From the NCBI GenBank assembly GCA_018818755.1, contig JAHIRL010000148.1, forward strand, positions 1 through 43,213: a stretch of 43,213 nucleotides of DNA, written 5' to 3'. The translations under genes and the position numbers were made by a program. Position 1 is the first letter of the stretch. Every line of letters begins with the position of its first letter. Shown here piece after piece: positions 11,343-38,488 of this stretch. This DNA comes from Patescibacteria group bacterium. GTDB taxonomy: Bacteria; Patescibacteriota; Gracilibacteria; UBA1369; LOWO2-01-FULL-3. The notes below the pieces were generated by a model. The model had not been told where the DNA came from and ran no database searches. It saw only the letters and a list, made by a program, of their open reading frames with translations.

Positions 11343-11343
11343 A

Positions 11344-12198
11344 ATGGATGGATTTTTATTGATGAATAAGCCGCAGGGGATTAGTTCTTTTGATCTTGTT
11401 CGGGAAGTTAAGCGGCGGTTGGGGGAACGGAAGGTTGGGCATAGTGGGACTTTGGATCCGATGGCTGAGGGATTGATGATTATTGCTCTTGGTCAGGGGA
11501 CGAAGTTGCTGGAATATTTGATTGGTTTGGATAAGCGGTATTTTGTGAAGGCTAAATTTGGGATGATTTCTGACACTTTTGATGCAGAGGGAGAGATTGA
11601 AGAGATGAATCCTTCTGCGGTTTTTGAACGAGAGGAAGTTGAGAAAATTATTGCGGAGAAATTTTTAGGAAAAATTTCGCAAGTGCCGCCAAAATATAGC
11701 GCTTTGAAGGTTGGTGGGAAGCGGGCTTGTGATATTGTGCGGGCAGGTGGAGAAGTTTCGATGCAGGCGCGCGAGGTGCAGATTGATCGCTTTGAGTTAG
11801 TGGATTATTTGTGGCCTACGCTGAGTTTCGAGGTAGATTGTGGGAGTGGCACTTATATTCGATCTTTGATTCATGATTTGGGGCAGGTGCTGGGCTGTGG
11901 CGCTTATGTTATGGAGTTGAGGCGAGATAGGGTGGGAGATTGGATGCTTGGGGATGCTGTTTCTCTTGAGGATTTGAGGGAAGATGATTTGATTTGTTTG
12001 GAGGATTTTGCGAAGAAATTTGAGTGTTTGGATTTGGCTAAGGCGGATCTTGATGCGCTTAGTGATGGGCGAGTTTTGTTGGGCAAAAAAATTGAACAGG
12101 GTGGGGTGAAGATGGCTTTTTTTGAGGGAAAATTCCTTGGAGTTTTGGAGAGTAGTAGTGATCAGACTGGAATTAAGTTTAAAAAAATGATTGTGTAA
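11344..12198 (+). CDS. truB: tRNA pseudouridine(55) synthase
   Basis: GHSGTLDPMAEGL catalytic-Asp motif, QVPPKYSALKVGGKRA, GTYIRSL. Confidence 0.92.
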   Translation: MDGFLLMNKPQGISSFDLVREVKRRLGERKVGHSGTLDPMAEGLMIIALGQGTKLLEYLIGLDKRYFVKAKFGMISDTFDAEGEIEEMNPSAVFEREEVEKIIAEKFLGKISQVPPKYSALKVGGKRACDIVRAGGEVSMQAREVQIDRFELVDYLWPTLSFEVDCGSGTYIRSLIHDLGQVLGCGAYVMELRRDRVGDWMLGDAVSLEDLREDDLICLEDFAKKFECLDLAKADLDALSDGRVLLGKKIEQGGVKMAFFEGKFLGVLESSSDQTGIKFKKMIV

Positions 12199-12228
12199 AG
12201 GTGGGTTTTGGTGTAGAAATTATTCGCT

Positions 12229-18085: not shown

Positions 18086-19480
18086 TTAGGTGTTAAGCAG
18101 GCTAATTATACTTGCTATTAAAAAAAATGGTATAAGGATTAGGTTTGCTGTGTTGCTGTTTTTGAAAAAATTTATTTTTAGTGATGTTGTGATGTGTAGT
18201 AAAAAGATGAAACTGAGTGCATATTTGAAGATGTGGCTTTCGTAGAAATAGAATCCTTTAGGAATACTTCCCAGGTCAAAGTTTTTGCTTGTGAGGTAAA
18301 TGGAGAGGAAATAGTAAAAAATGTAAAAGCCGAGCAGCCATCCGGAAAAGTGACAAATTTCTTTTGTAATTGAGAAAAATACGCTTTCTTCATTTTGAAT
18401 ATCTTCCTCAATTGTTTTTAGTTTTCTTTCTTTTTTGAAATTTTTTAATTTTTGAATTGAAGATTTGCGCATCTTCCAAATAGTTGAGATGGAGCGTTTT
18501 ATTTTGTCTTTATATTCTTTTGTTGGTTCTTTGAAATAGAGCATTGCAAATTGCCATAATTGCTTATTGTAAGTGCTGATCTCTTCTTTCATATAGCTTA
18601 TTTCCAAGGGAGTGGTGAAATAGTCCTTTAATTTTTCAGATAGGTTGCGGAGTTTTTTTACAAAAAAGCTTGGTTCTTTGAGGGTTTGATCCAGGTTGTC
18701 CAGGCGGTCGGTCAGTCGTTCAAAAAGTCCTGTGATTTTGTTTTGTTTCTTGGATTGTCCTCTTTTTAGTGAATCCAGGAGGTCTGAAGTTTGAATTGTT
18801 AGTTTTATTTGCTTGTTGCGTAGGCCCTTTTTTTGAAATTCTTTTTCTTGTGATTGAATGTATTTTAGGAGATCTTCTGCAGAATTGAGGATGTGGGCTA
18901 AGTTTGAGCTGTTTTTTATACGAAGTATTTGATTGATTCTCTTGTTTATTTCGGTTTTTTGGGCATTATTGAAGGATTTATCGTGTTCTTGTAAAATTTC
19001 ATTCACTTTTTTAAGGACATACTCAACCTTTGTTTGAACAATTTGGGCTTCTTTTTTATCTTGGAGCTTTCTTAGGTCATTCTTCGATTTTTCAAGATCT
19101 TCTTTTCTTTCGAATTGTTCTTTGAAATCTTCTACGCCGTTTTTTCTGGCTTTCTCGATTTCTTCTTTTGTAGCACCCTCTTTCCAGATTGCTGTAACCA
19201 TCAAGTTGTATTCTTTTTGTAGGCGATCAAAAGCTTTTTGTGAATCTTGCGCGGGAATTGTGCCACTAACAAATTGTGACCTTTTGTCGTATGCTTCAAA
19301 AACAAATTTCGGTAATTGGTTTTTACTTTCCGTTTCAGAGGGTTGAACTTCCATTAAGCTCAAAACGGAGAAGTTAAGGTTGTTTAACTCGTTTCTTGCT
19401 GTTGTTTCATTAGGGGCTTCAACAACACCGTTTAGCTTTTTACCTTCCTTATTGGCTACGGTGTATTTATATGTTGGCAT
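18086..19480 (-). CDS. membrane protein with two GspF/PilC-type N-terminal modules, a coiled-coil middle and 3 C-terminal TM segments
   Basis: MPTYKYTVANKEGKKLNGVVEAPNETTARNELNNLNFSVLSLMEV matches the M-x-F-x-Y-x-A-x-D-x-x-G-K start of T2SS/T4P platform proteins. A second copy is FVFEAYDKRSQFVSGTIPAQDSQKAFDRLQKEYNLMVTAI. The rest does not resemble canonical T2SSF domains. Confidence 0.6.
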   Translation of the reverse strand: MPTYKYTVANKEGKKLNGVVEAPNETTARNELNNLNFSVLSLMEVQPSETESKNQLPKFVFEAYDKRSQFVSGTIPAQDSQKAFDRLQKEYNLMVTAIWKEGATKEEIEKARKNGVEDFKEQFERKEDLEKSKNDLRKLQDKKEAQIVQTKVEYVLKKVNEILQEHDKSFNNAQKTEINKRINQILRIKNSSNLAHILNSAEDLLKYIQSQEKEFQKKGLRNKQIKLTIQTSDLLDSLKRGQSKKQNKITGLFERLTDRLDNLDQTLKEPSFFVKKLRNLSEKLKDYFTTPLEISYMKEEISTYNKQLWQFAMLYFKEPTKEYKDKIKRSISTIWKMRKSSIQKLKNFKKERKLKTIEEDIQNEESVFFSITKEICHFSGWLLGFYIFYYFLSIYLTSKNFDLGSIPKGFYFYESHIFKYALSFIFLLHITTSLKINFFKNSNTANLILIPFFLIASIISLLNT

Positions 19481-24177: not shown

Positions 24178-27100
24178 TTAAAGTGCGTTTTTTCTTTCCA
24201 TTCGGTAATAGAGAACCGGAATAACAACTAAAGTGAGTATTGTTGAAAATGCCAGGCCAAAAATTAGGGAAAAGCCTAATCCGGACCAAAATTCATTTGT
24301 AATTGCTAGCGGCAAAATACCTACAATCGTTGTTACGGAAGTCATTATAATCGGCTGTAAGCGGGCGTTGGATGCTTCTGCGATTGCTCGCGCAAATTCC
24401 ATTTTGCTGGCTCTGTTGGAATTAATACGATCAACTAAAACTATGGCATCATTTACAACTACTCCAGCCAGAGCAACTACTCCCAAAAATGCCGGGAAGG
24501 AGAGTTTGAGTCCTACCAGCATAAGTCCGGGGAATACACCGATTAGAGCTAATGGCAGTGTTGCCAGAATAACAAAAGCCTGACGGAATGAGTTGAACAT
24601 CAGGATTAAGGTAAATCCGATTAAAACAACAGCCACTATCATTGATTTAAACAAATCCTGAAAGGACTCGTTTATTTCTTCCATGTCTCCACCAAATTCG
24701 ATGTTGTAGCCTATTGGTAAATTTAAATTTTTAACTTTTTCTTCTATTTGATTGTTGATTGTAACCGCGTCGGCGTCTTTTTCGATATCACTTGTAACTT
24801 TTATTATTCTTTTTTCGTCTTCCCGCTGGATGCTGGAAAGGCTTTCTTCGAAGCTGTATTTGCCCAGTTCGCCAAGTGAAACCATATAGCCTTTAGGTGA
24901 AGCTATCTCGAAGTTTTCAATATCGTGAATTGAAAGATTAATCTTTTCGTTTTCTGTAGGAAGATTATATTTTGTATAGATGTCCAGTTCGTCATCCCCG
25001 AAAGTTATTGTGTCGGTTTTTACACCCTGAATTATGTTTCTTATTGTGCCGGCAACCTGCATTGAAGAAAGTCCGTGGTAGGCGAGGATTTCTTTGTCGA
25101 GGTTGAATACAAATTCGTTTACGCCTGATTTTAGGCTTTGTTGAGTGTTTGTTGTTCCGGGGATATCGTTAATCATTTTTTCGACTTCGTTGGCGATTTC
25201 TTTTAGTGAATCCAGGTCTTTTCCGGTAATTCTGGCTGTAATCGCGGCGTCGCTTGGAGGGCCTTCGCTGATTTGTTCAATTCGGATTTTTGCCTTTGTG
25301 TATGAGCTTAGTTCTTCTTCAAGTTCTTGGGCGATTTCGTAACTTTTCACATCCCGTTCTTCTTTATCTGTGAGGTTTATTGTGATGTTTGCTACATTGG
25401 AATCTGAGGTGGCACCTGCTGATCCGAAGTTGTCGTTTTCGGAAATCCCGCCGGAAGCGGTTGTTCCGATGTTTGTCAGGAAGTTTTCTACTTCCGGCAT
25501 TTTATATACATATTCCTCGATTTCTTCAGCGATTTTTTTTGTTTCTTCCAGGACGGTTCCTTTTGGAGTCTCAATTCTGACTATAAAATAGTTTTGATCG
25601 GTTTGGGCAAACATTTCCACTTTGAGCATCCCGCTAATGGGCAGCATCAGACTTAAGATAAATGCGATGATTGATGCGAAGATTATCATTAATCTGGTTT
25701 TTTTTGTTTCGATAATTCTTTGAATGAGGGGGGCAAATTTTGCGCCAATTTTCTTAAAAATCGGTTCCAGATAGCTACCGTGTTCTTTGTTGGGATCTCT
25801 TTTTACGAATCCAGTTGCCAGTGCAGGAGCGATTGTAAGGGAAATAAAGAGTGATCCGAGTAGGGCGGCGGAAATTGTTAAGGGAAGGGTTTTTAAAAAT
25901 TCTCCAAGGATTCCGCTAACTAGAAGCATGGGGAAAAAGGCGAAAACTGTTGTGAATGTCCCTGCGATCAGCGGCCATTTGTAGGTGTAAACGGAGAGAA
26001 TGGCTGCATCTGTGGGGGAGAGTCCTCTGCTTAGGTTTTCATAAATTCCTTCCATTATCACAATGGTTGTGTCTACCATCAACCCTAAAGCGATTACCAG
26101 AGAGAATAAGGAAAGACTGTTTATTGATAGTCCTTCAATGTCTAAAACTATAAAACTGAACAGGAAGATTATAGGAATTGAGAGTCCGGAAATTAGGCCG
26201 GCTTTGAAACCGAGAGCCAAAAATAGAATAACTATAATTATGATTGTTGTTTGGATTCCGTTTTGAGTTAGCACTCCAAGATCGGATTTTATCCAGACGG
26301 AATTGTCTGTGGTGACGGTTACTTTTGTGTTTTGAGGGATTGAACCTTCTGCCACGAGTTCATCTATTCTTGCTTTGGAATCTTCGGCAATGCCAATAAG
26401 ATCCGCTCCGGCTTTTTTGAAAACCTGTAAAGAAACGGATTGTAGTGATTTTTCACCATCGCTGGAAACTTTGCTGATTATGGTTTTTTCTGGATATACT
26501 TCTCTAATTTCGGCGATATCTTTTAGTAAAATGGTCGTGAATGAATCTTGGTCGGGGATTAGTTGCAGGGGAATATTTTGGATGTCTTTTAGTGATTGGT
26601 ATCGGTCATCCAGGCGTACCGAATAGTTTAATTTGTCGGAACTGATCAGTCCGATGGGAAGGTTGTTATTGCTGTATTTTATTTGATCGGAAATTGTATT
26701 GATGTTGAATCCGTATTTTTCGACTTTCTTCTGATCGAGGGTGATGTCGATTTGTTTTTCCTGGTCTCCTAAAATGGGCACTTTTGAAACTCCGGGAATT
26801 TTTTCCAGCTCGTCTTTTATTCTTTTGGCTTCCTGGCTCAGAATGTAGAGGGGTTTGTCTCCGCTTACGGAGAAAGTGATGATAGGAAAGCTGTTTGCTT
26901 CGGCTTTTGCGACCATTGGGTCTGTTGCGTCGTCCGGTAGGCTTCCTTTCACCATATCGACTTTGTCTTTTACTTCTTGAACTGCTTTGTCTATATCGGT
27001 GCCGGATTCAAATTCTATAAAAATTGAGGAAAAACCGAATCCTGAGGTTGAGGATAGGCTTTTTATATTATCTACATCGGCAATTTCTTTTTCTAGTGGT

Positions 27101-27333
27101 TCTGTGAGTAAGGATTCTGTGTCTGTGGGGCTGGCGCCGGGAAGGACTGCGGATACTCCGGCAAAAGGGATTTCGATTTCCGGTTGTAGTTCTCTTGGCA
27201 GGGTGCCCCAGGCAAGAGAACCAAAAAGAATGATGGTTAGAACCAAAAGCCAGGCTATTGGTCTTCTTTTTATTAAGAAGCTCCAAGCTGAATTTTTTGC
27301 TTCTTCAAGTTGTTCTTTTAGGTAATCAGTCAT
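24178..27333 (-). CDS. RND-family efflux transporter permease (AcrB-like)
   Basis: 1051 aa with the 12-TM, two-large-loop layout. N-terminus ...FLIKRRPIAWLLVL...LPRELQPEIEIP and C-terminal AGVVVNDAIVLVDRIN are typical of AcrB/HAE proteins. Confidence 0.88.
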   Translation of the reverse strand: MTDYLKEQLEEAKNSAWSFLIKRRPIAWLLVLTIILFGSLAWGTLPRELQPEIEIPFAGVSAVLPGASPTDTESLLTEPLEKEIADVDNIKSLSSTSGFGFSSIFIEFESGTDIDKAVQEVKDKVDMVKGSLPDDATDPMVAKAEANSFPIITFSVSGDKPLYILSQEAKRIKDELEKIPGVSKVPILGDQEKQIDITLDQKKVEKYGFNINTISDQIKYSNNNLPIGLISSDKLNYSVRLDDRYQSLKDIQNIPLQLIPDQDSFTTILLKDIAEIREVYPEKTIISKVSSDGEKSLQSVSLQVFKKAGADLIGIAEDSKARIDELVAEGSIPQNTKVTVTTDNSVWIKSDLGVLTQNGIQTTIIIIVILFLALGFKAGLISGLSIPIIFLFSFIVLDIEGLSINSLSLFSLVIALGLMVDTTIVIMEGIYENLSRGLSPTDAAILSVYTYKWPLIAGTFTTVFAFFPMLLVSGILGEFLKTLPLTISAALLGSLFISLTIAPALATGFVKRDPNKEHGSYLEPIFKKIGAKFAPLIQRIIETKKTRLMIIFASIIAFILSLMLPISGMLKVEMFAQTDQNYFIVRIETPKGTVLEETKKIAEEIEEYVYKMPEVENFLTNIGTTASGGISENDNFGSAGATSDSNVANITINLTDKEERDVKSYEIAQELEEELSSYTKAKIRIEQISEGPPSDAAITARITGKDLDSLKEIANEVEKMINDIPGTTNTQQSLKSGVNEFVFNLDKEILAYHGLSSMQVAGTIRNIIQGVKTDTITFGDDELDIYTKYNLPTENEKINLSIHDIENFEIASPKGYMVSLGELGKYSFEESLSSIQREDEKRIIKVTSDIEKDADAVTINNQIEEKVKNLNLPIGYNIEFGGDMEEINESFQDLFKSMIVAVVLIGFTLILMFNSFRQAFVILATLPLALIGVFPGLMLVGLKLSFPAFLGVVALAGVVVNDAIVLVDRINSNRASKMEFARAIAEASNARLQPIIMTSVTTIVGILPLAITNEFWSGLGFSLIFGLAFSTILTLVVIPVLYYRMERKNAL

Positions 27334-27334
27334 T

Positions 27335-28819
27335 TTAATCGTTTACGATTTTGATTTTGTCTCCTTCTTCAAGAAAAGCGGTGGAGGCTTTGATGATTTT
27401 TTCGTTTCCGTTGAGCCCACCTAAAATTTCAATGTAGTCTCCAAAAACTTTCCCGACTTCCACCGTTTTTATGGCGATGCTGTCATTTTCGACGAGGCGG
27501 ACATAGTTTTCTCCTTTTGCAGTGAATATACTATTTAGTGGAATGTATATCGCTGATTTTGTGTCGGGGTTGAAATTAATTTTGATAAATGATCCGGGGA
27601 TAATTTTTTCTGGTTCTTCAACGATTATTTCTAAATCGATCTTTTTCGTCTGACTGTTTGCACTGGGTAGGATTGCGCTTATTTCTCCTTCTACCGTTTT
27701 TCCATCGGCTTCAATAGTCACTGTGTCTCCAATTGCTACAAGTTCTTTTTCATCAAAGTTGATGCCGGTTTTTATTAAGAGTGAATCCTGGCTTTCGATT
27801 GTCATTAAAACTTGTCCGGGTGAAGCCATGTTTCCTTCTTCTGCTGAAATTTCGGTGATTATTCCGGCGATAGGAGCTTTAATATTTCGGTATTGTTGTT
27901 GAAGTTGTGTGGTTTTTGCGCTGGTCTCCGCCTGAAGTAACGCGCTTTCGGATTGAATTTTTTGTAAATCCGCGGAATTGGCTGCTTGATAATATTGTTT
28001 GCGAGCGATTTGATATTGGCTATATGCGTTGTTTATTGCGAAATCCAGTTGATTCAGTTGGGCATCAAAGTTTTCTTCAAGTAGGTCGATGGCGTTTTCG
28101 GCTTGCTCAACTCCGTTGTCTGCGGCGTTTTTTGCCATGCGAAGACTGCTAAGTTGTGATTCTGCCTGATCCAGAGAACTTTCTATTTGACTGTATCCCG
28201 CATCATTAGGGGATAGGCGATAAAGGTCGTTTTCCAGATCGTCAATTGTATCCTGAAGGTCGTTATAGTTATCTTTTGCTGTGCGATAGTTTTCCTCGGC
28301 GTTGTCTAGGGCTAAAAGTGCGTTGTCGTATTGGAGGTCAAAAGTGTTTTCTGCGTTTGTCTTTGTCTGGACTGCGTTTAGATAGGAGTTGTAAGCTGTA
28401 TATACTCCGTCTGAAGCTGTGGATAAGCTGTATTTTATCGAATCCTCTGTGATTGTTTTTGCCTGTTCACTTAGTGAAAGTCCTTCTTTTGCGCTTTGGT
28501 ACTGGATATTGGAGATATCTGTACTCAGTGATTCTCCCAGGCTAACTAAAGTTTGTCCTTTTTCAACTTTGTCTCCCCCTTTCACCTTAATATCGGTTAT
28601 ATTTCCGCTAACTTGAGGCATCACATAACTTGAGCTTTCAGAGTTTGCGATGGCTGTTTTGGTAAAGGTTAATTGCGCTTTTTCTCTGCTTAAATCAAAA
28701 ATTTCCACCTCTTTTGCGGTTTGTTGTACGGATGTTTCTCTGGCTACTTTTTCCTCTCCACATCCGCCAAGTGTAAATGCTAGGAGTAGGGTGGCTATTA
28801 GTAGGGTGTATTTTTTCAT
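27335..28819 (-). CDS. efflux membrane-fusion (HlyD/AcrA-family) lipoprotein
   Basis: Signal peptide with lipobox LGGC. It has a lipoyl-like half (VSGNITDIKVKGGDKVEKGQTLV ... IKAPIAGII), a long Q/A/N-rich coiled-coil hairpin and a beta-barrel C-terminus. There is a 1-nt gap to the RND gene. Confidence 0.85.
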   Translation of the reverse strand: MKKYTLLIATLLLAFTLGGCGEEKVARETSVQQTAKEVEIFDLSREKAQLTFTKTAIANSESSSYVMPQVSGNITDIKVKGGDKVEKGQTLVSLGESLSTDISNIQYQSAKEGLSLSEQAKTITEDSIKYSLSTASDGVYTAYNSYLNAVQTKTNAENTFDLQYDNALLALDNAEENYRTAKDNYNDLQDTIDDLENDLYRLSPNDAGYSQIESSLDQAESQLSSLRMAKNAADNGVEQAENAIDLLEENFDAQLNQLDFAINNAYSQYQIARKQYYQAANSADLQKIQSESALLQAETSAKTTQLQQQYRNIKAPIAGIITEISAEEGNMASPGQVLMTIESQDSLLIKTGINFDEKELVAIGDTVTIEADGKTVEGEISAILPSANSQTKKIDLEIIVEEPEKIIPGSFIKINFNPDTKSAIYIPLNSIFTAKGENYVRLVENDSIAIKTVEVGKVFGDYIEILGGLNGNEKIIKASTAFLEEGDKIKIVND

Positions 28820-31162: not shown

Positions 31163-34100
31163 GTGATGTCAAAAGAGGGATGTCCGCATAATTGCGAGGT
31201 GCCTGCTAATGTGGAAAAAGTGTCTGAGGTTGGGCGTGGTGGTAGTGATGAGTTGCGTATTATAAAATCTAGCAATTCTGAGCTTAATCTGGTTTTGGAT
31301 GGATTGAATTCGCCTTTTCCGCATGCTCTTTTGGAATTTTCTAAAACCCTTTATCGGGATGATGTTACTTTTGATGAAGTTCAAAGACAGTTTGAGAAAG
31401 AGAATTTTGAGCTGGATAAGAAAAAATACCCTTATTCATCGGTTATGCTTAATACTGTTTTTTTAGACCAAGAAGGTTGGTTGAAATTGGATTGTACCAT
31501 GATCCAATATCGTTATAAGGCTGGGGATATTGTTAAGTGTAAGAATGAACATAGTAAGCATTATGGCAAATATCTTTTTGTTGAGGGTTTTCTTTATCGA
31601 TCTTTGAGTTGTTCCACTTTGGTTTATTTTAGTGTTTTAGATTCATCGGGGAATGTAGAGAAGCAGTTGTGTGAAGGATGGAGCATAGGGGCTTTTGAGG
31701 AGGAGTGTGAATTGGTTCATAGGTGGGGAGAGTATGATCCTGAGGAGTTTGGGGTTGATATTTCAAAAAGAGATAATGTTTTCGCGATTGATACTGTTAA
31801 AGGTGAGAGAAGAAGTAGTGAGGATGGGATGATAAGGGTTACTAATTCGGAATTTGTAGAAAATTTTTTTGAAGCAAGGAATTTTAATAAAATTTCTGCT
31901 GAAGACGAGCCGTTTAAACTGGAAAATGTCTTTGATGAGTATGTTGAAATGCTGATGCGTGTGGAATTTAAGGATTTACTTCAACGCTTGAATCACATTT
32001 TTCCGCTTAAAAATTATGATCGGATAATTGAGAAAGTTGATTTATGTAAGACTTCTGTGGAAATTCAGGATTATAACCATGTTTTCTTTGCCGGACTGAA
32101 GGAGAATTTTAAGGATGATTATAGTGATGAGCAGTTGTCCAAGATCGCCGATTATCTGAGGGAACAGAGGGAACGGTTTGATTTGGAGAAATTACTGAGA
32201 GAGTCTTGCACCTATATGCGGACTTCTGCAGAGCATAAAATCGGTGGCAACCTGAGACATGTTGAAGTTCCCAGGGAAAATATCATTGAAAAGTTCCCGG
32301 ATTTTGTGAATGATTTGGTTTTAAATGTGGCTAAGTATCTGGTTCCTTTGTTTGGAAGGAATGAGGATTATTATATGAATCCGGATTTGTTTCGAAAAAG
32401 ATCGACATATTTTTCAAACTTGCTGGGTGATTATGCTAATCCGTTGGATGCGGCGCGGCATGTTGTGGGAGTTGGGTTTAATGGGGTTAGTGAGATGTTT
32501 GATAGGGCAATGAATCGTGAATTTAAGTATTTTGTAAATGGAAAACCGGCTTTTGAAAAACCGGAAGAGCAGGAAGCTTATTATGAATTGTTTTTTGCGG
32601 ACAAAAAGACTGAACTGAGGGCGCATGTTTCTGATGCAATGTCTTTGATAAGAGAGATTTTTGATGAGTTTGATGTTACTGCTCTTATTATGAAAGAGGT
32701 TTATGGAGAAAATGGCTTTGAAATTCGGAGTGATATGAGTTTTTCGGATGTGAATAATAAGTTGTCTACTATCAATAAAAACCTGGCACAGGCTTTTTCC
32801 GGCTTGAAGAAGAAGTTTTTTGATCGTGCGGGTAGTGTTTTTGATAAAATTGATCCGGAATTGAAAAATTCTTTTAGTGGGATTTTTGACGCTATGGTGG
32901 ATTCTTTCTTTGCTAATTGTGGAATTAATGATGAAATTATCAAAACTGTTCATGGTATTTTTGATCAGTTTCTTAAAAATTCGGGGATGGATGTTTGTGT
33001 TGTTGAGGAACCGAAAACTTATCCGATAAGAACTTTGGAGTTTGATGGCGAGTTGGTTGATTGTCAGAGTGAAAAAGGTGGTTTTAAGGGTGGAGACATT
33101 ATTAGTATTAATAATCGTGGTTCTATTAAAAAATATCTTGTTGAAGGTATTGGAGTGAAGAATGGCCGTGTGTACATCAGAGATCTTACTTTTGGTGTTA
33201 CAGCCAAGACTGTTGATTATTTTGAGCTGAAAGACTTTGAGAATGATGATCCGCGGTATAAGGTGGAATTACTTGCCCGATGGGGGAATTATGATCCTGC
33301 TGATTATTCATATGGTCTTTTGAATAGAGTTGAAAATTCCAAGCCGGTTTATGAAGGGGTGCTTGGAGGGTATGATTACACCTTTTTGATGGATGATTTT
33401 ATGGGAAAGTTATTGGGGCCATTAAGGAAAATGGAGGTAGAGTTTAACGATCATGACCATAGAATTGATAATAAATTCGGAGAATATATTTGTGAGCATA
33501 TTATCAGGGATATAAAGTATACCGAGGGTAAGGCTTTGCTTCCAACCAGGCTGTTGTATTTTGATAGAGATATTTATTCGGTGTATCCCGCTGCTCCGCC
33601 AAGTTCTTCCGGGTCTAATGTGATTCGATTTGAGATTTCGACGGGTTGTAGTCACGGAAAATGTTCATATTGTAATTTGTACGAAAATGAAGATTATTCT
33701 TTGAAAAACTTTGAGGATTTTGAGAAGCATTTTGATTTGATTTGGGAGTATTTGGGAGCAAGGGTGATGAAAAAACAGTTTAAAAGAGTATTTTTGAGTG
33801 GAGGTAACGGTTTATCTATGAAAACGGATGATCTGTGCAAGATTTTGAAGTATGCTCGTAAAAATTTGGGGGTTTTGAGGAGGATTGAATCATATGCGAA
33901 TACTTTGGCTATAAAAAAGCATGGAGAGGAAGGTTTGAAAAGGTTAAAAGAAAGTGGATTGAATATGGTTTATTGGGGAGTGGAAAGTTGTAATGATGGT
34001 GTTCTTAAATTGAGCAGGAAAGGATATAGGTCAAAATCTGTTTCGCAGGCCGGGAAAATGCTTAATGATGCCGGTATTGGGATGTCGATTACTGTTATGC

Positions 34101-34438
34101 CGGGATTGGGTGGAGAGAAATTTTCTGAGCGGCATGCTGAAGATACAGGAAAAATATTGGGAGAGTTGGCGCCTGAGTTTTTGACTTTGATGAGTGTACA
34201 TGCTCCGGGCAGTCTTTGGGAGCAGGACATGAATGATGATATGGATAATAGGGCTTTGAATGAGAACGAACTGAAGGAAGAAATTTTGCTTATGCGAAAA
34301 GTTTTTTTACAAACAGCCAAGAAAAATCCTAACGGTTTCAAAAGGAAGGTCAGTATTGCTGCTCATGGTCCGAATATAACTCCCGTTTCTAATAATCCAA
34401 CAAGTTTTCAAACCAGAATTGAATTGGAGAAAAAGTAG
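31163..34438 (+). CDS. 1091-aa protein: unknown ~800-aa N-terminal region plus a C-terminal radical-SAM domain
   Basis: GCSHGKCSYC (C829-x4-C834-x2-C837, nt 33647-33673), FLSGGNG (nt 33791-33811), GVESCND, VMPGLGGE. The N-terminal part has no recognisable motif but contains two copies of a ~95-aa module. The true start may be ATG 31166. Confidence 0.85.
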   Translation: MMSKEGCPHNCEVPANVEKVSEVGRGGSDELRIIKSSNSELNLVLDGLNSPFPHALLEFSKTLYRDDVTFDEVQRQFEKENFELDKKKYPYSSVMLNTVFLDQEGWLKLDCTMIQYRYKAGDIVKCKNEHSKHYGKYLFVEGFLYRSLSCSTLVYFSVLDSSGNVEKQLCEGWSIGAFEEECELVHRWGEYDPEEFGVDISKRDNVFAIDTVKGERRSSEDGMIRVTNSEFVENFFEARNFNKISAEDEPFKLENVFDEYVEMLMRVEFKDLLQRLNHIFPLKNYDRIIEKVDLCKTSVEIQDYNHVFFAGLKENFKDDYSDEQLSKIADYLREQRERFDLEKLLRESCTYMRTSAEHKIGGNLRHVEVPRENIIEKFPDFVNDLVLNVAKYLVPLFGRNEDYYMNPDLFRKRSTYFSNLLGDYANPLDAARHVVGVGFNGVSEMFDRAMNREFKYFVNGKPAFEKPEEQEAYYELFFADKKTELRAHVSDAMSLIREIFDEFDVTALIMKEVYGENGFEIRSDMSFSDVNNKLSTINKNLAQAFSGLKKKFFDRAGSVFDKIDPELKNSFSGIFDAMVDSFFANCGINDEIIKTVHGIFDQFLKNSGMDVCVVEEPKTYPIRTLEFDGELVDCQSEKGGFKGGDIISINNRGSIKKYLVEGIGVKNGRVYIRDLTFGVTAKTVDYFELKDFENDDPRYKVELLARWGNYDPADYSYGLLNRVENSKPVYEGVLGGYDYTFLMDDFMGKLLGPLRKMEVEFNDHDHRIDNKFGEYICEHIIRDIKYTEGKALLPTRLLYFDRDIYSVYPAAPPSSSGSNVIRFEISTGCSHGKCSYCNLYENEDYSLKNFEDFEKHFDLIWEYLGARVMKKQFKRVFLSGGNGLSMKTDDLCKILKYARKNLGVLRRIESYANTLAIKKHGEEGLKRLKESGLNMVYWGVESCNDGVLKLSRKGYRSKSVSQAGKMLNDAGIGMSITVMPGLGGEKFSERHAEDTGKILGELAPEFLTLMSVHAPGSLWEQDMNDDMDNRALNENELKEEILLMRKVFLQTAKKNPNGFKRKVSIAAHGPNITPVSNNPTSFQTRIELEKK

Positions 34439-34493
34439 TTTCTCGCAATTGCTGAAGTTTTTTTGGAAATGGAGTTCGCATTCGCTCACAGTT

Positions 34494-34550
34494 GCGCTTG
34501 TCCGAATTTCCCAAGGGGCAAGCGGCAAATTTTGCTTTGCAAAATTTGTG
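34494..34550 (-). repeat. structured repeat unit, copy L (3' of tRNA-Arg): GC stem plus AT-rich hairpin
   Basis: Stem CGCTTG (34495-34500) pairs with CAAGCG (34519-34524). Hairpin CAAATTTTGC-TTT-GCAAAATTTG lies at 34526-34548. Shares the AGCGGCAA core and terminal GTG with copy R. Confidence 0.55.
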
Positions 34551-34627
34551 TGGTACGCCCGACAGGATTCGAACCTGTAACCCCCGGTTCCGAAGACCGG
34601 TGCTCTATCCAGTTGAGCTACGGGCGC
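34551..34627 (-). tRNA. tRNA-Arg (anticodon UCG), CCA encoded
   Basis: Reverse complement folds as a cloverleaf: GCGCCCG TA GCTC AACTGGATA GAGC A CCGGT CTTCGGA ACCGG GGGTT ACAGG TTCGAAT CCTGT CGGGCGT A CCA. All stems pair (G1-U72 wobble), the T-loop is TTCGAAT, and anticodon positions 34-36 are TCG. Confidence 0.93.
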
Positions 34628-34648
34628 AAGTTTTGGGATAAGGAGCTC

Positions 34649-34666
34649 GTCCCGCAGTAGCGGGAC
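34649..34666 (-). other. GC-rich stem-loop 21 nt upstream of the tRNA 5' end
   Basis: GTCCCGC-AGTA-GCGGGAC, a perfect 7-bp stem. Confidence 0.45.
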
Positions 34667-34672
34667 TCGCTT

Positions 34673-34729
34673 GCGCTCGCAGGATTTCCTATGTGCGAGC
34701 GGCAAGTTTTTTCTCCGCAAAAACTCGTG
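34673..34729 (-). repeat. structured repeat unit, copy R (5' of tRNA-Arg)
   Basis: Stem CGCTCGC (34674-34680) pairs with GCGAGCG (34695-34701). Hairpin AGTTTTT-TCTCCGC-AAAAACT lies at 34705-34725 and gains a G-U pair only in the minus-strand RNA. Shares the AGCGGCAA core and terminal GTG with copy L. Confidence 0.55.
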
Positions 34730-34791: not shown

Positions 34792-37700
34792 TTATGCCTC
34801 GTCAGTGCGTTCTTTTTTCTTTTCGGCTCTAAGTGTCCATTTAATAAGCAATGGAGTCGCTGTGAATATTGATGAATAAGTACCGACGATTGTTCCCAAA
34901 GTTAGAGCCAGAATGAAGTAAAAGATCGATGGGCTTCCCAATAATAATACTGCAACAAGTGTGAATAATGTTGAAAGAGAAGTGTTGATTGATCTTGTGA
35001 AGCTTTGGCGAAGGGCTTGGTTGGCCACATGCTCCAAAGTTTCGTCTCTTTCTTTTGTAATTAGTCTTTCACGCAGTCTGTCGAAAATAACGATGGTGTC
35101 GTTTACGGAATAACCGAATACTGTGAGCATCGCGGTTATGAAAAGGGCGTCGATTTCTACATTGAAGAATTGTCCGAGGATAACAAAAACTCCTGTGACA
35201 ATGAGCATGTCGTGGGCTAGTGCGGCGATTGCGCAGGCTCCGAAACGCCATGGGCTTACCTCTTTTGGGACTTTTCTAAAGGCGATTGCTACATAGATAA
35301 TGATCATTACCAATGCGAATATTATGGCAATTACAGCTTTTTCCAGTAGAGTTTTTCCGATAACCGGCCCTATTGTTGTAAATCTTGGTTCTGTGAATTC
35401 CGGAAGAGTCTCTTTCATTTTTTCTACGATGGTTTTGTGGGCTGATGAATCCAGGTATTTGGTTTTTACAACGAAGGAGTTTTCTTCTGATGCTAGTATC
35501 TGGATGTTTGTTAGATCTATTTTCGTTGTAGGGTCTGCGCTAATTACGGTTTCTCCTTCAACAGTTTCTTTCGGGCTTTCATTTACAACTGCAATGGATC
35601 CGTCTTGCATTTCTTCTTCGATGCTAACAAGTGTGTCTGCCAAAACTTGTTTTTCTACCGGTTCTGAAAATTTGAATTCCATCAAGCTTCCTCCCGTAAA
35701 GTCCAGTCCGAGGTTGAGACCAAAGATGATGATTGCGGCTAGGGAGGCAGTTACGAGTCCACCGGATACTGTGAGCCAAGTTTTTGAATTTTTGATGAAG
35801 TTGAATTTGTTTTCTTTTTTAGCCGGATTAACTCCAAAGGCTTTTAGGTTTTCGGCAAGTTTTGTTCCGATGAAGCTTTGCAATAAAGTTTTTGTAACAG
35901 TAATTGCTGTGAACATGGAGACCAAAATACCTGCGGCCAGGTTGAAGGCAAATCCTTTGATGATTGAAGAACCGAAGTAGAAAAGGATTGCACATGTTAG
36001 GAGTGTTGAAAAGTTTGAATCTCGAATGGCGCTCCAGGCTCTATTAAATCCGGATTCGACAGCGGATTTATATGGTTTTCCTTCTTTTAGTTCTTCCTTA
36101 AATCTTTCGAAAATAAGGATGTTGGCATCTACGGCCATACCTATTGATAAGATAATTCCCGCTACACCAGCAAGTGTTAGCACTATTCCGGTTTTGAGTA
36201 GGAATATTAGGAAGAAGAATCCCACACAACTCAGTAGGAAGGAAAGAGTTTTTTCCCATGCGGAATCTTTGTTGTTGATGATTTTAAATACCAGAAATCC
36301 AAATACGGCTAGTGCTCCTAGCAAGGCAATTCCCACATGTAGCTCGGATTTTATTAGGAAAAGGAAAATTGAGGCATAAACAACTAGAGCGATTGCGGCC
36401 ATAATTCCGGCGGCTCTGTAATATAGAACCATGAAGATTATTACTAATGCTAGGCCGATAAGGCCTGCTGTAAGACTTTTTGTAAGAGCTTCGTGTCCGA
36501 GAGTGGCTCCGATTGTATATTCTCCGGTTAAGACGATTGGAGCGGGGATTGCGCCTGTGTTTAGATCTCGTGCCAGGTTTTTTGCTTCGTCTGTTGTGAA
36601 TTCACCGGTGATTTGTGCCGATCCTCCTGCAATTTTCCCTTGTACTTCAGGGGCGGAAATCTGATCTCCTCCCACGAAAATCGCTACTCTTTTCCCGACA
36701 TTTCTTTCTGTTATTTCCTCGAAAAGTTTGGCTCCTTCATCGTTAAATTGGATTGTTACATATGGTTGGTAGAACTGATCAAGTTGAACATCCGCATGAA
36801 TAAAGTGTTTTCCTGTTAATCCGGTTTCTTTCCAGGGATTTGGAAGAGTTGAGTAAGTTAGTAATTCGTATTTGTATTGTTTTTCTTTGATATCAGTAAG
36901 GACTTCGTCGGCTTTAATGATGTGGTATCCAAATTTAGTGTTGACGATGTCACTTATATCTCCGCTTTTTTCAAAGGCCAAAGCGGCTTGTTCGAAATCG
37001 TAAACATAAGTTCCGTCTCCTGTTACGGGGGTGGAAAGTCTTCCTCCCTGGTCTTTATTGCTGGCATCGTCCGAATTTTCTTGGGCTAGAATTGCGAAAT
37101 CTTCTCCTTGATCCACTTTTGCTTTTATTTCTTTTGCAAGTTCGTAGGCTTCTTCTTTTGTGCGGGTAATACTTTCATCGGCTTGTTCACTTCCCGCATA
37201 AGCTATTAAAATGTGGCTTACTGCTACTTCTTTTTCATCTTTTACGGCTTCGTCAACATCAACGAGTTTTACAATTCCATAACCGCTATCTTCGACGGCT
37301 TGTCCGGATTCGTTAATTACAAAAGTTCCGCCGGTTTCTATTAGGCCGTAAAACTCACCAATCTCCATTGTTGTAAGCTTTTCTTTTAAATAAGAGGGGA
37401 GTTCGCTTTCAAAGACATATTCCGAAGTATCGTGTTTTGCGAGTCCCGGAAAGGCCTGAACCTCTTCCTGTGCGACAACTTCGTAATCTGCTCCTTCTTT
37501 GATTTTATTTAGTGTTTTTTGGGCGTCCTCATGGATACGATCTTTTTCTTCGGGATCTATTTGTTGTTTTTCTTCTTTAAATTCCAATTGGATGGTTTTT
37601 CCGACTGTTGCTTTTGCTTTTTCCAAACTGACTAATTTTTTCTGATCGTCCGTTAGTTCTCCCACTTTCACTCCTTCTTTTCCGAGGTATGTATCTACAT

Positions 37701-38061
37701 CTTCCTGGCTTATTGTAGCTGATTCTGCTAGTTCTACCACAATGTGGTTTTCACCGGCAATTTCTGATGTGTAAATGTTTGGTTCGGCAACTCCCAGTCC
37801 GTTTACACGCCTTTCAATAACTTCCAGCACACCATCAATAATGTCTTCCCGATCGGCTTCGGGCACTTTTCTCAGATCAATCTTATAATCCAGTTGGGAT
37901 CCTCCCTGAAGGTCTAGCCCTAGGTGAATTTTGGTGTTTGTGATTGAGTCCGGCAGAAATGGAAGAATTGTTTTTTGAGTTTGTTGGGGGAGACTGTAAA
38001 AACCAAAGACCAATACTAATAGAAGTGTGGCGATAATTTTCCAGTTTAGAAATCTTTTCAT
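34792..38061 (-). CDS. secDF: SecD-SecF fusion protein with a parvulin-type PPIase module inserted in the SecD periplasmic P1 domain
   Basis: SecD motifs are GLDLQGG, NGLGVAEPNIY..ENHIVVEL, then LTGKHFIHA...VAIFVGGDQISAPEV...ITGEFTTDEAKNLARDLNTGAIPAPI plus TM bundle. The SecF half is FNFIKNSK...GLDFTGG...FDRLRE. Between the SecD motifs sits a canonical parvulin domain: SHILIAY...GEDFAILAQENSDDASNKDQGG...FEQAALAF...GDISDIVNTKFGYHIIK. I prefer ATG 38061 (MKRFLNWK...) over the track start 38139, which overlaps the upstream gene. Confidence 0.88.
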   Translation of the reverse strand: MKRFLNWKIIATLLLVLVFGFYSLPQQTQKTILPFLPDSITNTKIHLGLDLQGGSQLDYKIDLRKVPEADREDIIDGVLEVIERRVNGLGVAEPNIYTSEIAGENHIVVELAESATISQEDVDTYLGKEGVKVGELTDDQKKLVSLEKAKATVGKTIQLEFKEEKQQIDPEEKDRIHEDAQKTLNKIKEGADYEVVAQEEVQAFPGLAKHDTSEYVFESELPSYLKEKLTTMEIGEFYGLIETGGTFVINESGQAVEDSGYGIVKLVDVDEAVKDEKEVAVSHILIAYAGSEQADESITRTKEEAYELAKEIKAKVDQGEDFAILAQENSDDASNKDQGGRLSTPVTGDGTYVYDFEQAALAFEKSGDISDIVNTKFGYHIIKADEVLTDIKEKQYKYELLTYSTLPNPWKETGLTGKHFIHADVQLDQFYQPYVTIQFNDEGAKLFEEITERNVGKRVAIFVGGDQISAPEVQGKIAGGSAQITGEFTTDEAKNLARDLNTGAIPAPIVLTGEYTIGATLGHEALTKSLTAGLIGLALVIIFMVLYYRAAGIMAAIALVVYASIFLFLIKSELHVGIALLGALAVFGFLVFKIINNKDSAWEKTLSFLLSCVGFFFLIFLLKTGIVLTLAGVAGIILSIGMAVDANILIFERFKEELKEGKPYKSAVESGFNRAWSAIRDSNFSTLLTCAILFYFGSSIIKGFAFNLAAGILVSMFTAITVTKTLLQSFIGTKLAENLKAFGVNPAKKENKFNFIKNSKTWLTVSGGLVTASLAAIIIFGLNLGLDFTGGSLMEFKFSEPVEKQVLADTLVSIEEEMQDGSIAVVNESPKETVEGETVISADPTTKIDLTNIQILASEENSFVVKTKYLDSSAHKTIVEKMKETLPEFTEPRFTTIGPVIGKTLLEKAVIAIIFALVMIIIYVAIAFRKVPKEVSPWRFGACAIAALAHDMLIVTGVFVILGQFFNVEIDALFITAMLTVFGYSVNDTIVIFDRLRERLITKERDETLEHVANQALRQSFTRSINTSLSTLFTLVAVLLLGSPSIFYFILALTLGTIVGTYSSIFTATPLLIKWTLRAEKKKERTDEA

Positions 38062-38071
38062 TTTTTTAAAG

Positions 38072-38488
38072 TTAATTATTATTTTGTTGAGATAGTTGGC
38101 GATCCAGGTCTTCGTTGTTGCCTTTTCCGTCTCTGCCATAGTCGTCGGAAAGTTTTACAACATCGTCCAGTTCGGGCGTAGAAACCTCAAAAATCTCGCT
38201 ATCTTCAAGAGCTTCAAGGCGGTGGATAGTATAGGGATGAACATCAATTTTGTCACCTTCGTTTAAAATTTTGTCTTGCAGGTTGTTTTCATCTGTGCCG
38301 TAAGTAAATTTCACTTTTCCTTTATAGATGTACTGAGTTTCGATTTTTTTCTCGTGATATTGCAGGCTGTAGCGGTGTCCTTTGCTTACTTTGAGGATTT
38401 TGCCAGCGTATTTGTCGTTGTGGGCAAACCAGATTTCTTCGCCCCAGGGTTTTGGTTTTATTTGAACTTGATGCGGGGAATCGTTCAT
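38072..38488 (-). CDS. cupin-domain protein, type II phosphomannose isomerase C-terminal-like
   Basis: KPWGEEIWF..., GHRYSLQYHEKKIETQYIYKG, and IHRLEA... resemble the cupin half of bifunctional ManC/PMI. Confidence 0.75.
   Translation of the reverse strand: MNDSPHQVQIKPKPWGEEIWFAHNDKYAGKILKVSKGHRYSLQYHEKKIETQYIYKGKVKFTYGTDENNLQDKILNEGDKIDVHPYTIHRLEALEDSEIFEVSTPELDDVVKLSDDYGRDGKGNNEDLDRQLSQQNNN

What the first reader, a model, noticed from the sequence alone, without database searches (positions are those of the whole stretch)
36829..37722. SecDF fusion carries a PrsA/SurA/PpiD-like parvulin module inserted in the SecD periplasmic P1 domain
The SecD P1 region runs from TM1 (aa ~33-50 of the track ORF) to the TM bundle at aa ~555, about 500 aa. 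I recall roughly 230 aa for the compact Thermus SecDF. The extra sequence sits between the conserved ...ENHIVVEL and LTGKHF... blocks. It contains a textbook parvulin domain at aa 305-412 (nt 36904-37227): SHILIAY, GEDFAILAQENSDDASNKDQGG, FEQAALAF, GDISDIVNTKFGYHIIK. It is preceded at aa ~183-297 (nt ~37249-37593) by a segment with the same spacing but degenerate motifs (...KEGADYEVVAQEEV...MEIGEFYGLIETGGTF...GYGIVKLVDV). That would give a SurA-like pair of one inactive and one active parvulin. Parvulin chaperones such as PpiD and PrsA are known to act on proteins emerging from the Sec translocon. A covalent SecDF-foldase fusion would be a Rosetta-stone style link between translocation pulling and folding.
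Basis: partly seen in the sequence, partly recalled or inferred. Interest (0 to 1): 0.72.

Follow-up and report, generated by a model that had tools for sequence, protein, structure and literature searches.

The report
SecDF translocase with built-in parvulin foldase
A protein-export motor (SecDF) of a Peregrinibacteria-type bacterium carries two prolyl-isomerase-type folding modules spliced into its outward-facing arm; the design is conserved in at least 200 related species but is not described in the papers I could search, and it links protein export physically to protein folding.

Summary
The ORF at 34792-38139 (-) is an intact 12-TM SecDF fusion. Its P1 domain is interrupted, exactly between Pfam SecD_1st and SecDF_P1_head, by a ~250-aa cassette. 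Module 2 (aa 298-415) is a canonical parvulin (Rotamase_3, E 7.5e-25). Its catalytic His/Asp/His equivalents are kept in 90-97% of 201 relatives. Module 1 (aa ~191-297) is a degenerate parvulin that lacks those residues. Evidence for this: profile-profile comparison (96%, E 2e-9), a blind search of 1.84 billion proteins whose non-SecD hits are mostly parvulin chaperones, and best PDB hits to SurA's inactive P1 domain. Two AlphaFold models (pLDDT 91 and 93.5) keep both the P1 base and head, so the cassette decorates the head rather than replacing it. No SurA/PrsA/PpiD chaperone core is present. The architecture is clade-wide: 201 GTDB species, mostly Peribacteria/Peregrinibacteria, and it is not an artefact. 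Public records label it SecD or "peptidylprolyl isomerase". Seven full-text searches found no description of it. The most likely function is a foldase/holdase riding on the proton-driven P1 head. This would be a covalent version of the proposed SurA-SecDF, PpiD-SecYEG and Mycoplasma "dome" contacts. I could not test whether it replaces free-standing parvulin chaperones.

The parts
34792..38139 (-). SecDF fusion ORF (1115 aa as listed; the probable true start is ATG at 38061, i.e. M27, giving 1089 aa).
   Evidence: ORF list. Pfam SecD/SecF domains. NCBIfam TIGR01129 secD scores 352 bits (cut-off 244) and TIGR00966 SecF scores 299 bits (cut-off 160). Start inferred from the homologue consensus MKRF... 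and the sequence around 38061.
37981..38055 (-). TM1 (aa ~29-53), which anchors the P1 domain outside the cytoplasm.
   Evidence: Hydropathy scan. Helix 2-48 in the model.
37720..37836 (-). P1 base, N-terminal part (Pfam SecD_1st, aa 102-140, profile positions 2-37).
   Evidence: Aligns to T. thermophilus SecDF residues 28-109.
37630..37719 (-). Lineage-specific extra segment of 27-28 aa (aa ~141-170) inside SecD_1st. It is not part of the parvulin cassette.
   Evidence: The segment between aa 141 and 182 is 41-42 aa here and in P0001, P0002, P0007 and P0057, but 13-14 aa in nearly all other relatives.
37573..37605 (-). Canonical SecD strand VGKTIQLEFKE (aa 179-189), the end of SecD_1st. The cassette begins right after it. 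It may also serve as the first strand of module 1.
   Evidence: L185, E186 and F187 are invariant in 113 sequences. SecD_1st profile matched 2-59/60 through this strand in P0020. Strand E185-190 in the model.
37249..37569 (-). Module 1 (aa ~191-297): degenerate parvulin-like domain without the catalytic His/Asp/His.
   Evidence: Pfam alone is weak: Rotamase E 0.004, profile 10-92/97. hhalign against module 2: 96.3%, E 1.9e-9. Profile against PDB: best hits are SurA P1, PpiD parvulin and 8hm3 PPIase, E 0.015-0.07. Blind search of 1.84e9 proteins: 133 hits, and 52 of 60 tail hits carry Rotamase. Predicted order strand-helix-helix-strand-helix-strand-strand.
36895..37248 (-). Module 2 (aa 298-415): canonical parvulin PPIase domain with H309, D357 and H406.
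   Evidence: Rotamase_3 E 7.5e-25. PrsA 6vj6 E 2e-14. Foldseek to the Pin1 PPIase domain: rmsd 1.2-1.3 A over 114 columns, TM 0.85-0.88. In 201 relatives, H309 is kept in 195, D357 in 181 and H406 in 195.
36829..36894 (-). Connector (aa 416-437). A long predicted strand runs from the last strand of module 2 into the P1 head. W436 is invariant.
   Evidence: DSSP strand E404-430. W436 invariant.
36541..36828 (-). P1 head subdomain (aa 438-533), retained.
   Evidence: SecDF_P1_head E 1.2e-27, profile 18-114/114. Aligns to T. thermophilus SecDF 159-275.
35881..36492 (-). SecD TM2-TM6 bundle (aa ~550-753), with the GMAVDAN Asp (aa 671) that aligns with T. thermophilus D340.
   Evidence: D671 is nearly invariant.
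34792..35805 (-). SecF half (aa ~779-1115): TM7, P4 domain and TM8-12. The Asp of YSVNDT and the Arg of SFTRSI align with T. thermophilus D637 and R671.
   Evidence: TIGR00966 match at aa 779-1101. Alignment to 3aqp.

Best explanation
This is a genuine, functional SecDF proton-driven export factor. Its extracytoplasmic P1 domain has acquired a tandem parvulin cassette at the junction between the P1 base (SecD_1st) and the P1 head.

Shown by the evidence:
- The SecDF core is complete, including the proton-path residues.
- Module 2 is a canonical parvulin with its catalytic signature under purifying selection.
- Module 1 is a degenerate parvulin without that signature.
- The P1 base and head are both retained.
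- The arrangement is conserved across a whole Peregrinibacteria/Peribacteria-centred clade.

Inferred mechanism:
- The cassette rides on, or next to, the mobile P1 head. In SecDF this head grips the emerging polypeptide and swings under proton flow.
- Module 1 acts as a peptide-binding (holdase) surface, like SurA's inactive P1 domain.
- Module 2 catalyses prolyl cis/trans isomerisation of the chain as it leaves SecYEG.
- The fusion thus builds into one polypeptide the chaperone recruitment that other bacteria achieve non-covalently (SurA-SecDF, PpiD/YfgM-SecYEG, PrsA, and the Mycoplasma PrsA-like dome on SecDF).
For: Domain calls with strong statistics.

SecDF integrity:
- 12 hydrophobic segments.
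- Equivalents of T. thermophilus D340, D637 and R671 are present.

Cassette inserted, not replacing:
- SecD_1st and P1_head are both matched.
- T. thermophilus residues 28-109 and 159-275 flank the insert.
- The isolated T. thermophilus P1 domain (3aqo) aligns with TM 0.65-0.67 across the split.
- Models are confident: pLDDT 91.4 / pTM 0.70 and pLDDT 93.5 / pTM 0.78.

Module 2 active-site conservation in 201 relatives: H309 97%, D357 90% (plus 5% Glu), H406 97%; G366, G404, L368 and F382 at 98% or more.

Module 1 is a parvulin.

Clade-wide conservation of both the insert and the SecD-SecF fusion.

Functional precedent:
- AlphaFold models place SurA's two parvulin domains on the SecDF P1 head (PMC9987972).
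- PrsA-like PPIase lipoproteins form a folding dome on SecDF/SecYEG in M. pneumoniae (bioRxiv 10.1101/2025.04.25.650208 and 10.1101/2024.09.05.611430).
- Peribacteria genomes are noted for many large exported proteins (PMC4736985).
Against: - No biochemical evidence exists for any member.
- PPIase activity is dispensable for the chaperone function of SurA and PpiD (established knowledge), so conserved catalytic residues do not prove that catalysis matters in vivo.
- I could not inspect model coordinates. The position of the active site relative to the P1-head groove or the SecY exit is therefore unknown.
- The rigid coupling to the head is inferred only from long continuous predicted strands (E281-312, E404-430) and the pTM values.
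- The cassette evolves faster than the SecD core: mean pairwise identity is 0.32 for module 1 and 0.46 for module 2, against 0.64 for the core.
- It is unknown whether these genomes also keep free-standing parvulin chaperones.
Confidence: 0.65

Rival explanations
1. Holdase or clamp only. The two parvulin folds merely enlarge the polypeptide-gripping surface of the P1 head, giving better pulling and less back-sliding of very long substrates. Prolyl isomerase catalysis is irrelevant, as it is for SurA and PpiD.
For: Module 1 has lost the catalytic residues yet is retained everywhere. Its nearest solved relatives are the inactive, peptide-binding SurA P1 domain and the PpiD parvulin. Some relatives add a third, truncated and non-catalytic parvulin-like module.
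Against: H309, D357 and H406, together with the G366/G404/L368/F382 signature of module 2, are kept in 90-99% of 201 relatives, while the domain overall is only 46% identical pairwise. This pattern is expected if catalysis is under selection.
Confidence: 0.2
2. Docking or spacer module. The cassette mediates contacts with another envelope component (SecYEG/YidC, sortase, the cell wall, or the surface of a host cell), or simply lengthens P1 to span a thicker envelope. It does not act on translocating chains.
For: Parvulin folds are used as protein-protein interaction modules; for example, SurA's parvulin domains are predicted to contact SecDF. The predicted long beta-ribbons would suit a rigid spacer.
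Against: This does not explain conservation of the catalytic signature. No conserved partner gene was seen next to secDF. No second parvulin lies in the flanks of the 80 loci; other neighbouring genes were not compared.
Confidence: 0.1
3. Assembly or annotation artefact. A PPIase gene and secD are joined by a chimeric contig or a frameshift.
For: None beyond the general caution that the window is probably metagenome-derived.
Against: The same in-frame architecture, with the same insertion point and module lengths (116 and 118 aa), occurs in 120 of the 120 best protein clusters and in 201 GTDB species representatives from many independent studies.
Confidence: 0.01

Closest known systems
SecDF of Thermus thermophilus (PDB 3AQP, 5YHF, 5XAN)
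   Same: Single-chain 12-TM SecDF. It shares the P1 base and head, the P4 domain, the Sec_GG motifs, and the conserved Asp/Asp/Arg of the proton path.
   Different: In T. thermophilus a connector of about 49 residues (110-158) links the LEFR strand to the LTG motif of the head. Here that stretch is ~285 aa (aa 155-439). It contains two parvulin modules and, upstream of the LEF strand, a 27-28-aa extra segment.
SurA (E. coli; PDB 1M5Y, 2PV1)
   Same: Tandem of an inactive and then an active parvulin domain. Module 1 aligns to SurA P1 (residues 166-239) and module 2 to SurA P2 (278-362). Foldseek aligns ~240 columns across both modules.
   Different: There is no SurA N-terminal/C-terminal chaperone core (no SurA_N hit). 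The cassette is not a soluble periplasmic protein but is embedded in a membrane transporter. The host clade is described as having sortase-type (Gram-positive-like) surface-protein handling (PMC4736985).
PrsA foldase lipoprotein of Firmicutes (PDB 6VJ6, 4WO7, 5HTF)
   Same: Closest solved sequence relative of module 2 (E 2e-14; 31-38% identity in the Foldseek alignments). It is a non-phospho-specific parvulin with Asp at the Pin1 C113 position, and it acts on proteins leaving the Sec channel.
   Different: PrsA has one parvulin flanked by an N+C chaperone-like domain, is lipid-anchored, and is a separate gene. Here there is no NC domain, and SecD itself provides the anchor.
PpiD/YfgM at SecYEG (PDB 8ZHT)
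   Same: A membrane-tethered parvulin-containing chaperone stationed at the translocon exit. Foldseek aligns 252 columns. PpiD's parvulin is among the module 1 hits.
   Different: PpiD has a single inactive parvulin plus a SurA_N-like domain and its own TM anchor. Its association with SecYEG is non-covalent (PMC9643414, seen).
Mycoplasma pneumoniae 'dome' complex (Mpn444/Mdp proteins with SecDF-SecYEG)
   Same: PrsA-like PPIase domains are held directly on SecDF over the translocon exit, forming a translocation-folding unit (bioRxiv 10.1101/2025.04.25.650208 and 10.1101/2024.09.05.611430).
   Different: There the foldases are separate lipoproteins with SurA-type helical domains that form a trimeric chamber. 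Here two bare parvulin folds are spliced into SecD.

Membership tests
SecDF (SecD/SecF protein-export factor, RND superfamily) | SecD and SecF signature domains: two SecD_SecF_C TM bundles, Sec_GG motifs, and the P1 base and head. | tested here: met
   Pfam. TIGR01129 scores 352 bits (cut-off 244) and TIGR00966 scores 299 bits (cut-off 160). Full-length SecDF equivalog models fall below their cut-offs (for example NF009583, 574 against 721), as expected for an interrupted, divergent P1.
SecDF (SecD/SecF protein-export factor, RND superfamily) | 12 TM segments with large extracytoplasmic loops after TM1 and TM7. | tested here: met
   Hydropathy segments at aa 29-53, 550-753 (TM2-6), 787-814 and 923-1085 (TM8-12). 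Helices in the model.
SecDF (SecD/SecF protein-export factor, RND superfamily) | Conserved charged residues of the proton path (T. thermophilus D340, D637, R671; residue roles are from my knowledge of the SecDF structure papers). | tested here: met
   The alignment to 3aqp places Asp, Asp and Arg at those positions. D671 is nearly invariant in the family.
SecDF (SecD/SecF protein-export factor, RND superfamily) | Proton-motive-force-dependent stimulation of protein export. | not testable with these tools
   Needs genetics or biochemistry.
Parvulin PPIase (Pfam Rotamase / Rotamase_3): module 2 | Significant match to the family profile, and the parvulin fold. | tested here: met
   E 7.5e-25. Foldseek to the Pin1 PPIase domain: rmsd 1.2-1.3 A, TM 0.85-0.88.
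Parvulin PPIase (Pfam Rotamase / Rotamase_3): module 2 | Catalytic His...Asp/Cys...His set (Pin1 H59, C113, H157). | tested here: met
   H309, D357 and H406 are aligned to the Pin1 positions. They are conserved in 195, 181 and 195 of 201 relatives.
Parvulin PPIase (Pfam Rotamase / Rotamase_3): module 2 | Measured cis/trans isomerase activity. | not testable with these tools
   Needs an enzyme assay.
Parvulin fold: module 1 (degenerate) | Homology to parvulin domains. | tested here: met
   Below the Pfam cut-off on its own (18.4 bits against 21.7). However, hhalign gives 96.3% / E 1.9e-9 against module 2. The top PDB profile hits are parvulins. Of 60 weaker blind-search hits, 52 carry Rotamase domains.
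Parvulin fold: module 1 (degenerate) | Catalytic residues. | tested here: not met
   The position equivalent to H406 (aa 288) is variable (Y/L/A/N/F/G). The strand equivalent to SHILI is TIQLEF.
SurA | N-terminal chaperone domain (SurA_N) plus a C-terminal helix enclosing P1 and P2; a soluble periplasmic protein. | tested here: not met
   No SurA_N, SurA_N_2 or SurA_N_3 hit at E <= 1. The cassette is only two modules of about 115 aa each.
PrsA | Lipoprotein with an N+C chaperone-like domain flanking one parvulin. | tested here: not met
   No sequence is left for an NC domain: module 1 fills the space before module 2 and is itself parvulin-like. The protein is anchored by the SecD TM helices, not by a lipobox.
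PpiD | Own N-terminal TM anchor, a SurA_N-like domain and a single inactive parvulin. | tested here: not met
   No SurA_N-like domain. There are two parvulin modules, one with an intact catalytic set.

The most novel reading that the evidence does not exclude
In Peregrinibacteria-type CPR bacteria, SecDF has become a proton-driven 'pull-and-fold' machine. The parvulin cassette is rigidly coupled to the swinging P1 head. Each proton-powered stroke would then present the emerging chain to a peptide-binding parvulin and a catalytic parvulin. The fusion would also have replaced free-standing PrsA/PpiD/SurA-type chaperones in these reduced genomes. If so, it would be the first case of an extracytoplasmic foldase mechanically coupled to an energy source. 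It would also be natural Rosetta-stone evidence that parvulin chaperones work on the SecDF P1 head in bacteria generally.
Probability: 0.3. Interest if true: 0.8.

Novelty: new variant of a known kind. Interest (0 to 1): 0.6.

Why it matters
How proteins leaving SecYEG are handed to extracytoplasmic chaperones, where there is no ATP, is an open question. Current evidence for a SecDF-chaperone link is indirect:
- low-resolution EM and AlphaFold models of SurA's parvulin domains on the SecDF P1 head;
- PpiD/YfgM cross-links to the translocon;
- an in-cell tomography model of PrsA-like proteins on Mycoplasma SecDF.

A covalent SecDF-parvulin fusion that has been kept in at least 200 species is independent evolutionary evidence that this is a functional pairing, located at the P1 head. 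It also offers a compact single-chain system, with predicted structures of high confidence, for testing whether P1 movements are coupled to folding catalysis. For annotation, it explains why these genes are inconsistently named 'SecD' or 'peptidylprolyl isomerase'.

Tried and rejected
1. My first alternative for aa 141-297 was a helical PrsA/SurA-type NC chaperone domain rather than a parvulin. I rejected it. hhalign, the predicted secondary-structure order and the blind search all point to a parvulin fold, and no SurA_N model matches.

2. I tried to test whether a free-standing parvulin chaperone is missing.
- The window and the +-10-kb flanks of 80 related loci hold no second parvulin. This covers too little of any genome to be meaningful.
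- One free-standing SurA_N-like + Rotamase protein (P0207) carries a 'Peregrinibacteria' label. The same 90% cluster is also labelled Magasanikbacteria. Its family is tiny, and its only other organism-labelled relative is Magasanikbacteria.
- Result: inconclusive.

3. Foldseek with the 780-aa model is dominated by SecDF and RND pumps. A separate model of the cassette was needed.

4. Alternative genetic code 25 (Gracilibacteria). I rejected it for this window: ORFs are intact under table 11 and TGA ends 2 of 25 ORFs. One related locus (L066) has in-frame TGA codons. I did not resolve this.

5. I considered whether the insertion site coincides with the extra P1 sequence of E. coli SecD. From memory of the E. 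coli sequence it does not. I did not test this and make no claim.

6. Seven literature searches for any description of a SecD/SecDF-parvulin fusion found none. The library lacks most subscription-journal papers, so this is absence of evidence only.


Full report
**What is there**

The finding lies in the ORF 34792..38139 on the minus strand (1115 aa). Pfam finds, in order:
- SecD_1st (aa 102-140)
- Rotamase_3 / Rotamase (aa 288-412; E 7.5e-25 and 1.1e-22)
- SecDF_P1_head (aa 438-533; E 1.2e-27)
- two SecD_SecF_C membrane domains and two Sec_GG motifs

NCBIfam confirms SecD (TIGR01129, 352 bits against a cut-off of 244) and SecF (TIGR00966, 299 against 160) in one chain. The parvulin match is far beyond chance.

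The window is ordinary chromosomal sequence of about 41% GC. It carries housekeeping genes: PriA, an aminoacyl-tRNA synthetase, CTP synthase, Lgt, DnaG, RpoD, a Mur ligase, MraY and iPGM. It is read with the standard code.

**Exact anatomy**

Relatives without the local 27-28-aa extra segment match the SecD_1st profile 2-59/60, right through the strand VGKTIQLEFKE. L185, E186 and F187 are invariant in 113 aligned sequences. That strand (aa 179-189) is therefore canonical SecD, and the cassette starts directly after it.

Against T. thermophilus SecDF, residues 28-109 align with ORF aa 66-154, and residues 159-275 align with aa 440-556. The ~49-residue connector of the Thermus protein is thus replaced by ~285 aa. 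These consist of:
- a lineage-specific segment (aa 141-170), shared only with the closest relatives and lying upstream of the canonical strand noted above;
- module 1 (aa ~191-297);
- module 2 (aa 298-415);
- a 22-aa connector ending in the invariant W436.

The likely true start is M27 (ATG at 38061). It lies 10 nt after the upstream gene's stop, and homologues begin at that point.

The rest of SecDF is intact:
- There are twelve hydrophobic segments.
- The Asp/Asp/Arg that align with T. thermophilus D340, D637 and R671 are present. That these are the proton-path residues comes from my knowledge of the SecDF structural papers.

**Module 2**

Its best solved sequence relatives are PrsA proteins (6vj6, E 2e-14), followed by Pin1 and the P2 domain of SurA. 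In the Pin1 alignment, H309, D357 and H406 occupy the positions of Pin1 H59, C113 and H157. The Asp is typical of non-phospho-specific parvulins such as PrsA.

Counts in 201 family members (120 database proteins, 80 genome loci and the window protein) are given:
- H309: 195
- D357: 181 (plus 10 Glu and 9 Asn)
- H406: 195
- G366, G404, L368 and F382: 198-200

The domain as a whole is only 46% identical pairwise. A separate AlphaFold model of aa 181-450 (pLDDT 93.5, pTM 0.78) superposes on the Pin1 PPIase domain at 1.2-1.3 A over 114 columns.

**Module 1**

On its own it only grazes Pfam (Rotamase E 0.004, although over profile positions 10-92 of 97). Four further tests agree that it is a degenerate parvulin.
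1. The family profile of module 1 matches the family profile of module 2 (hhalign 96.3%, E 1.9e-9, 82 columns).
2. Searched against PDB sequences, its best hits, though marginal (E 0.015-0.07), are parvulins. They include the inactive P1 domain of SurA (2pv1; 1m5y residues 166-239), the inactive PpiD parvulin (2kgj), and a 427-aa PPIase (8hm3).
3. A blind search of 1.84 billion representative proteins gave only 133 hits.
   - 50 of the 52 strong hits have SecD flanks.
   - Of 60 mostly weaker hits chosen for scanning, 52 carry Rotamase domains and many carry SurA_N-type domains.
4. The predicted secondary structure has the parvulin order strand-helix-helix-strand-helix-strand-strand. Foldseek aligns ~240 columns of the cassette to SurA, spanning both parvulin domains.

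The catalytic positions are not conserved in module 1.

The cassette is not a SurA, PrsA or PpiD homologue as a whole. No SurA_N-type chaperone domain is detected, and there is no room for one.

**Decorate or replace?**

Both the P1 base and the P1 head are retained. The isolated T. thermophilus P1 structure (3aqo) aligns to the model with TM 0.65-0.67 across the interruption. The 780-aa model is confident (pLDDT 91.4, pTM 0.70).

Predicted strands run without a break from the last strand of module 1 into the first strand of module 2 (E281-312). They also run from the last strand of module 2 towards the head (E404-430). Together with the pTM of 0.78, this suggests a rigid stack attached to the head.

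This is an inference from predictions. I could not inspect the coordinates.

**Distribution**

- All 120 best protein clusters found with aa 100-560 have the same SecD_1st-Rotamase-P1_head architecture. Module lengths are nearly fixed at 116 and 118 aa.
- A scan of one genome per GTDB species found 201 species encoding the cassette. The 80 best are almost all labelled Peribacteria, Peregrinibacteria, Gracilibacteria or Patescibacteria.
- In the 80 kept loci the gene is, in nearly all loci that reach the SecF region, a fused SecDF ORF of 1040-1150 aa, as here.
- Other sublineages have SecD alone (681-688 aa). Another group of ~780 aa carries a third, truncated parvulin-like module.

A frameshift or chimera is thus excluded. 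The trait is ancient within this clade.

Sources name these proteins 'protein translocase subunit SecD', 'peptidylprolyl isomerase' or 'MMPL family transporter'.

**Comparison with the literature**

Seven full-text searches found no description of a covalent SecD/SecDF-parvulin fusion. The Peribacteria genome paper does not mention it. It does stress the many large exported proteins and a sortase in these genomes (PMC4736985).

Three lines of work make the fusion meaningful.
- Troman et al. showed SurA binding to the holo-translocon. Their AlphaFold models place SurA's P1 and P2 parvulin domains on the SecDF P1 head (PMC9987972).
- PpiD/YfgM sits at SecYEG (PMC9643414, listed).
- In M. pneumoniae, PrsA-like PPIase lipoproteins form a folding dome on SecDF-SecYEG. 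Substrate density there contacts the catalytically intact PPIase domain (bioRxiv 10.1101/2025.04.25.650208 and 10.1101/2024.09.05.611430).

**Mechanism (inferred)**

The P1 head of SecDF binds the emerging chain and swings under proton flow (established model). A tandem parvulin mounted at the base-head junction would meet the chain at the exit. Module 1 would act as a binding surface and module 2 as an isomerase.

The main rival is a pure holdase or clamp role in which catalysis is dispensable, as in SurA and PpiD. The strong conservation of the catalytic signature argues against that rival but cannot exclude it.

Whether the fusion replaces free-standing parvulin chaperones could not be tested.

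**Verdict**

It is a new variant of known components: SecDF plus a parvulin tandem. It is visible in databases but apparently not described. Its value is as a natural Rosetta-stone link between translocation and folding.

Interest: 0.6.

Noticed in passing
window 37630-37719 (-), aa 141-170 of the ORF: A 27-28-aa extra segment, predicted to be helical, lies inside the SecD_1st part of P1. It is shared only with the closest relatives (P0001, P0002, P0007, P0057) and is separate from the parvulin cassette.
   Followed up: partly
relatives P0030, P0056, P0076, P0086 and others (34 of the 120 hits): SecD variants of ~780 aa carry a third, truncated parvulin-like module of ~64 aa between modules 1 and 2 (hhalign 86%, E 5e-6 against module 2). 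They also have ~35 extra residues after module 2.
   Followed up: partly
window 38061-38139 (-): The listed ORF start overlaps the upstream cupin-like gene (38072-38488) by 68 nt. Homologues start at the internal ATG at 38061 (M27), 10 nt after that gene's stop, so the listed N-terminus is probably 26 aa too long.
   Followed up: yes
window 34551-34627 (-): A tRNA-Arg(TCG) gene lies immediately downstream of secDF. The mechanical '137-aa ORF' at 34307-34720 is just this tRNA region being translated.
   Followed up: no
window 24178-28819 (-): An AcrB-type RND pump (1051 aa, E 1.7e-197) sits next to a HlyD-type membrane-fusion protein (494 aa). The lineage is described as having Gram-positive-like surface-protein handling. 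No outer-membrane channel gene was seen among the window ORFs of 150 aa or more that I scanned with Pfam.
   Followed up: no
window 31163-34438 (+): A 1091-aa protein has a radical SAM domain only at aa 824-989. About 800 N-terminal residues have no Pfam match.
   Followed up: no
window 1410-7724 (-) and 18086-19480 (-): A 2104-aa ORF and a 464-aa ORF have no Pfam match at E <= 1e-5. The large one is lysine/glutamate-rich at its N-terminus, is not cysteine-rich (4 Cys), and shows no obvious signal peptide.
   Followed up: partly
loci L006, L010, L041: Contigs deposited as Nitrospirae/Nitrospirota MAGs carry this Peregrinibacteria-type SecDF-parvulin gene at 55-59% identity to the window cassette. 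The contigs are probably mis-binned or the MAGs mislabelled.
   Followed up: no
proteins P0151, P0178, P0193: Free-standing proteins of 363-436 aa consist of three consecutive Rotamase domains and have no SecD or SurA_N part. P0151 matches the module 1 profile at E 2e-15. These may be relatives of, or a source for, the cassette. Their organisms are unknown.
   Followed up: partly
locus L066 (Gracilibacteria STL-PAT5), 9653-12765: The cassette-bearing secD region and the downstream secF-like region contain in-frame TGA codons, and secF lies in another frame. This may reflect UGA recoding (code 25) or a split gene.
   Followed up: partly
whole window: GC skew is positive in nearly every 2-kb window (up to 0.42), and the cumulative skew rises steadily. 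This holds even though most long ORFs are on the minus strand.
   Followed up: no
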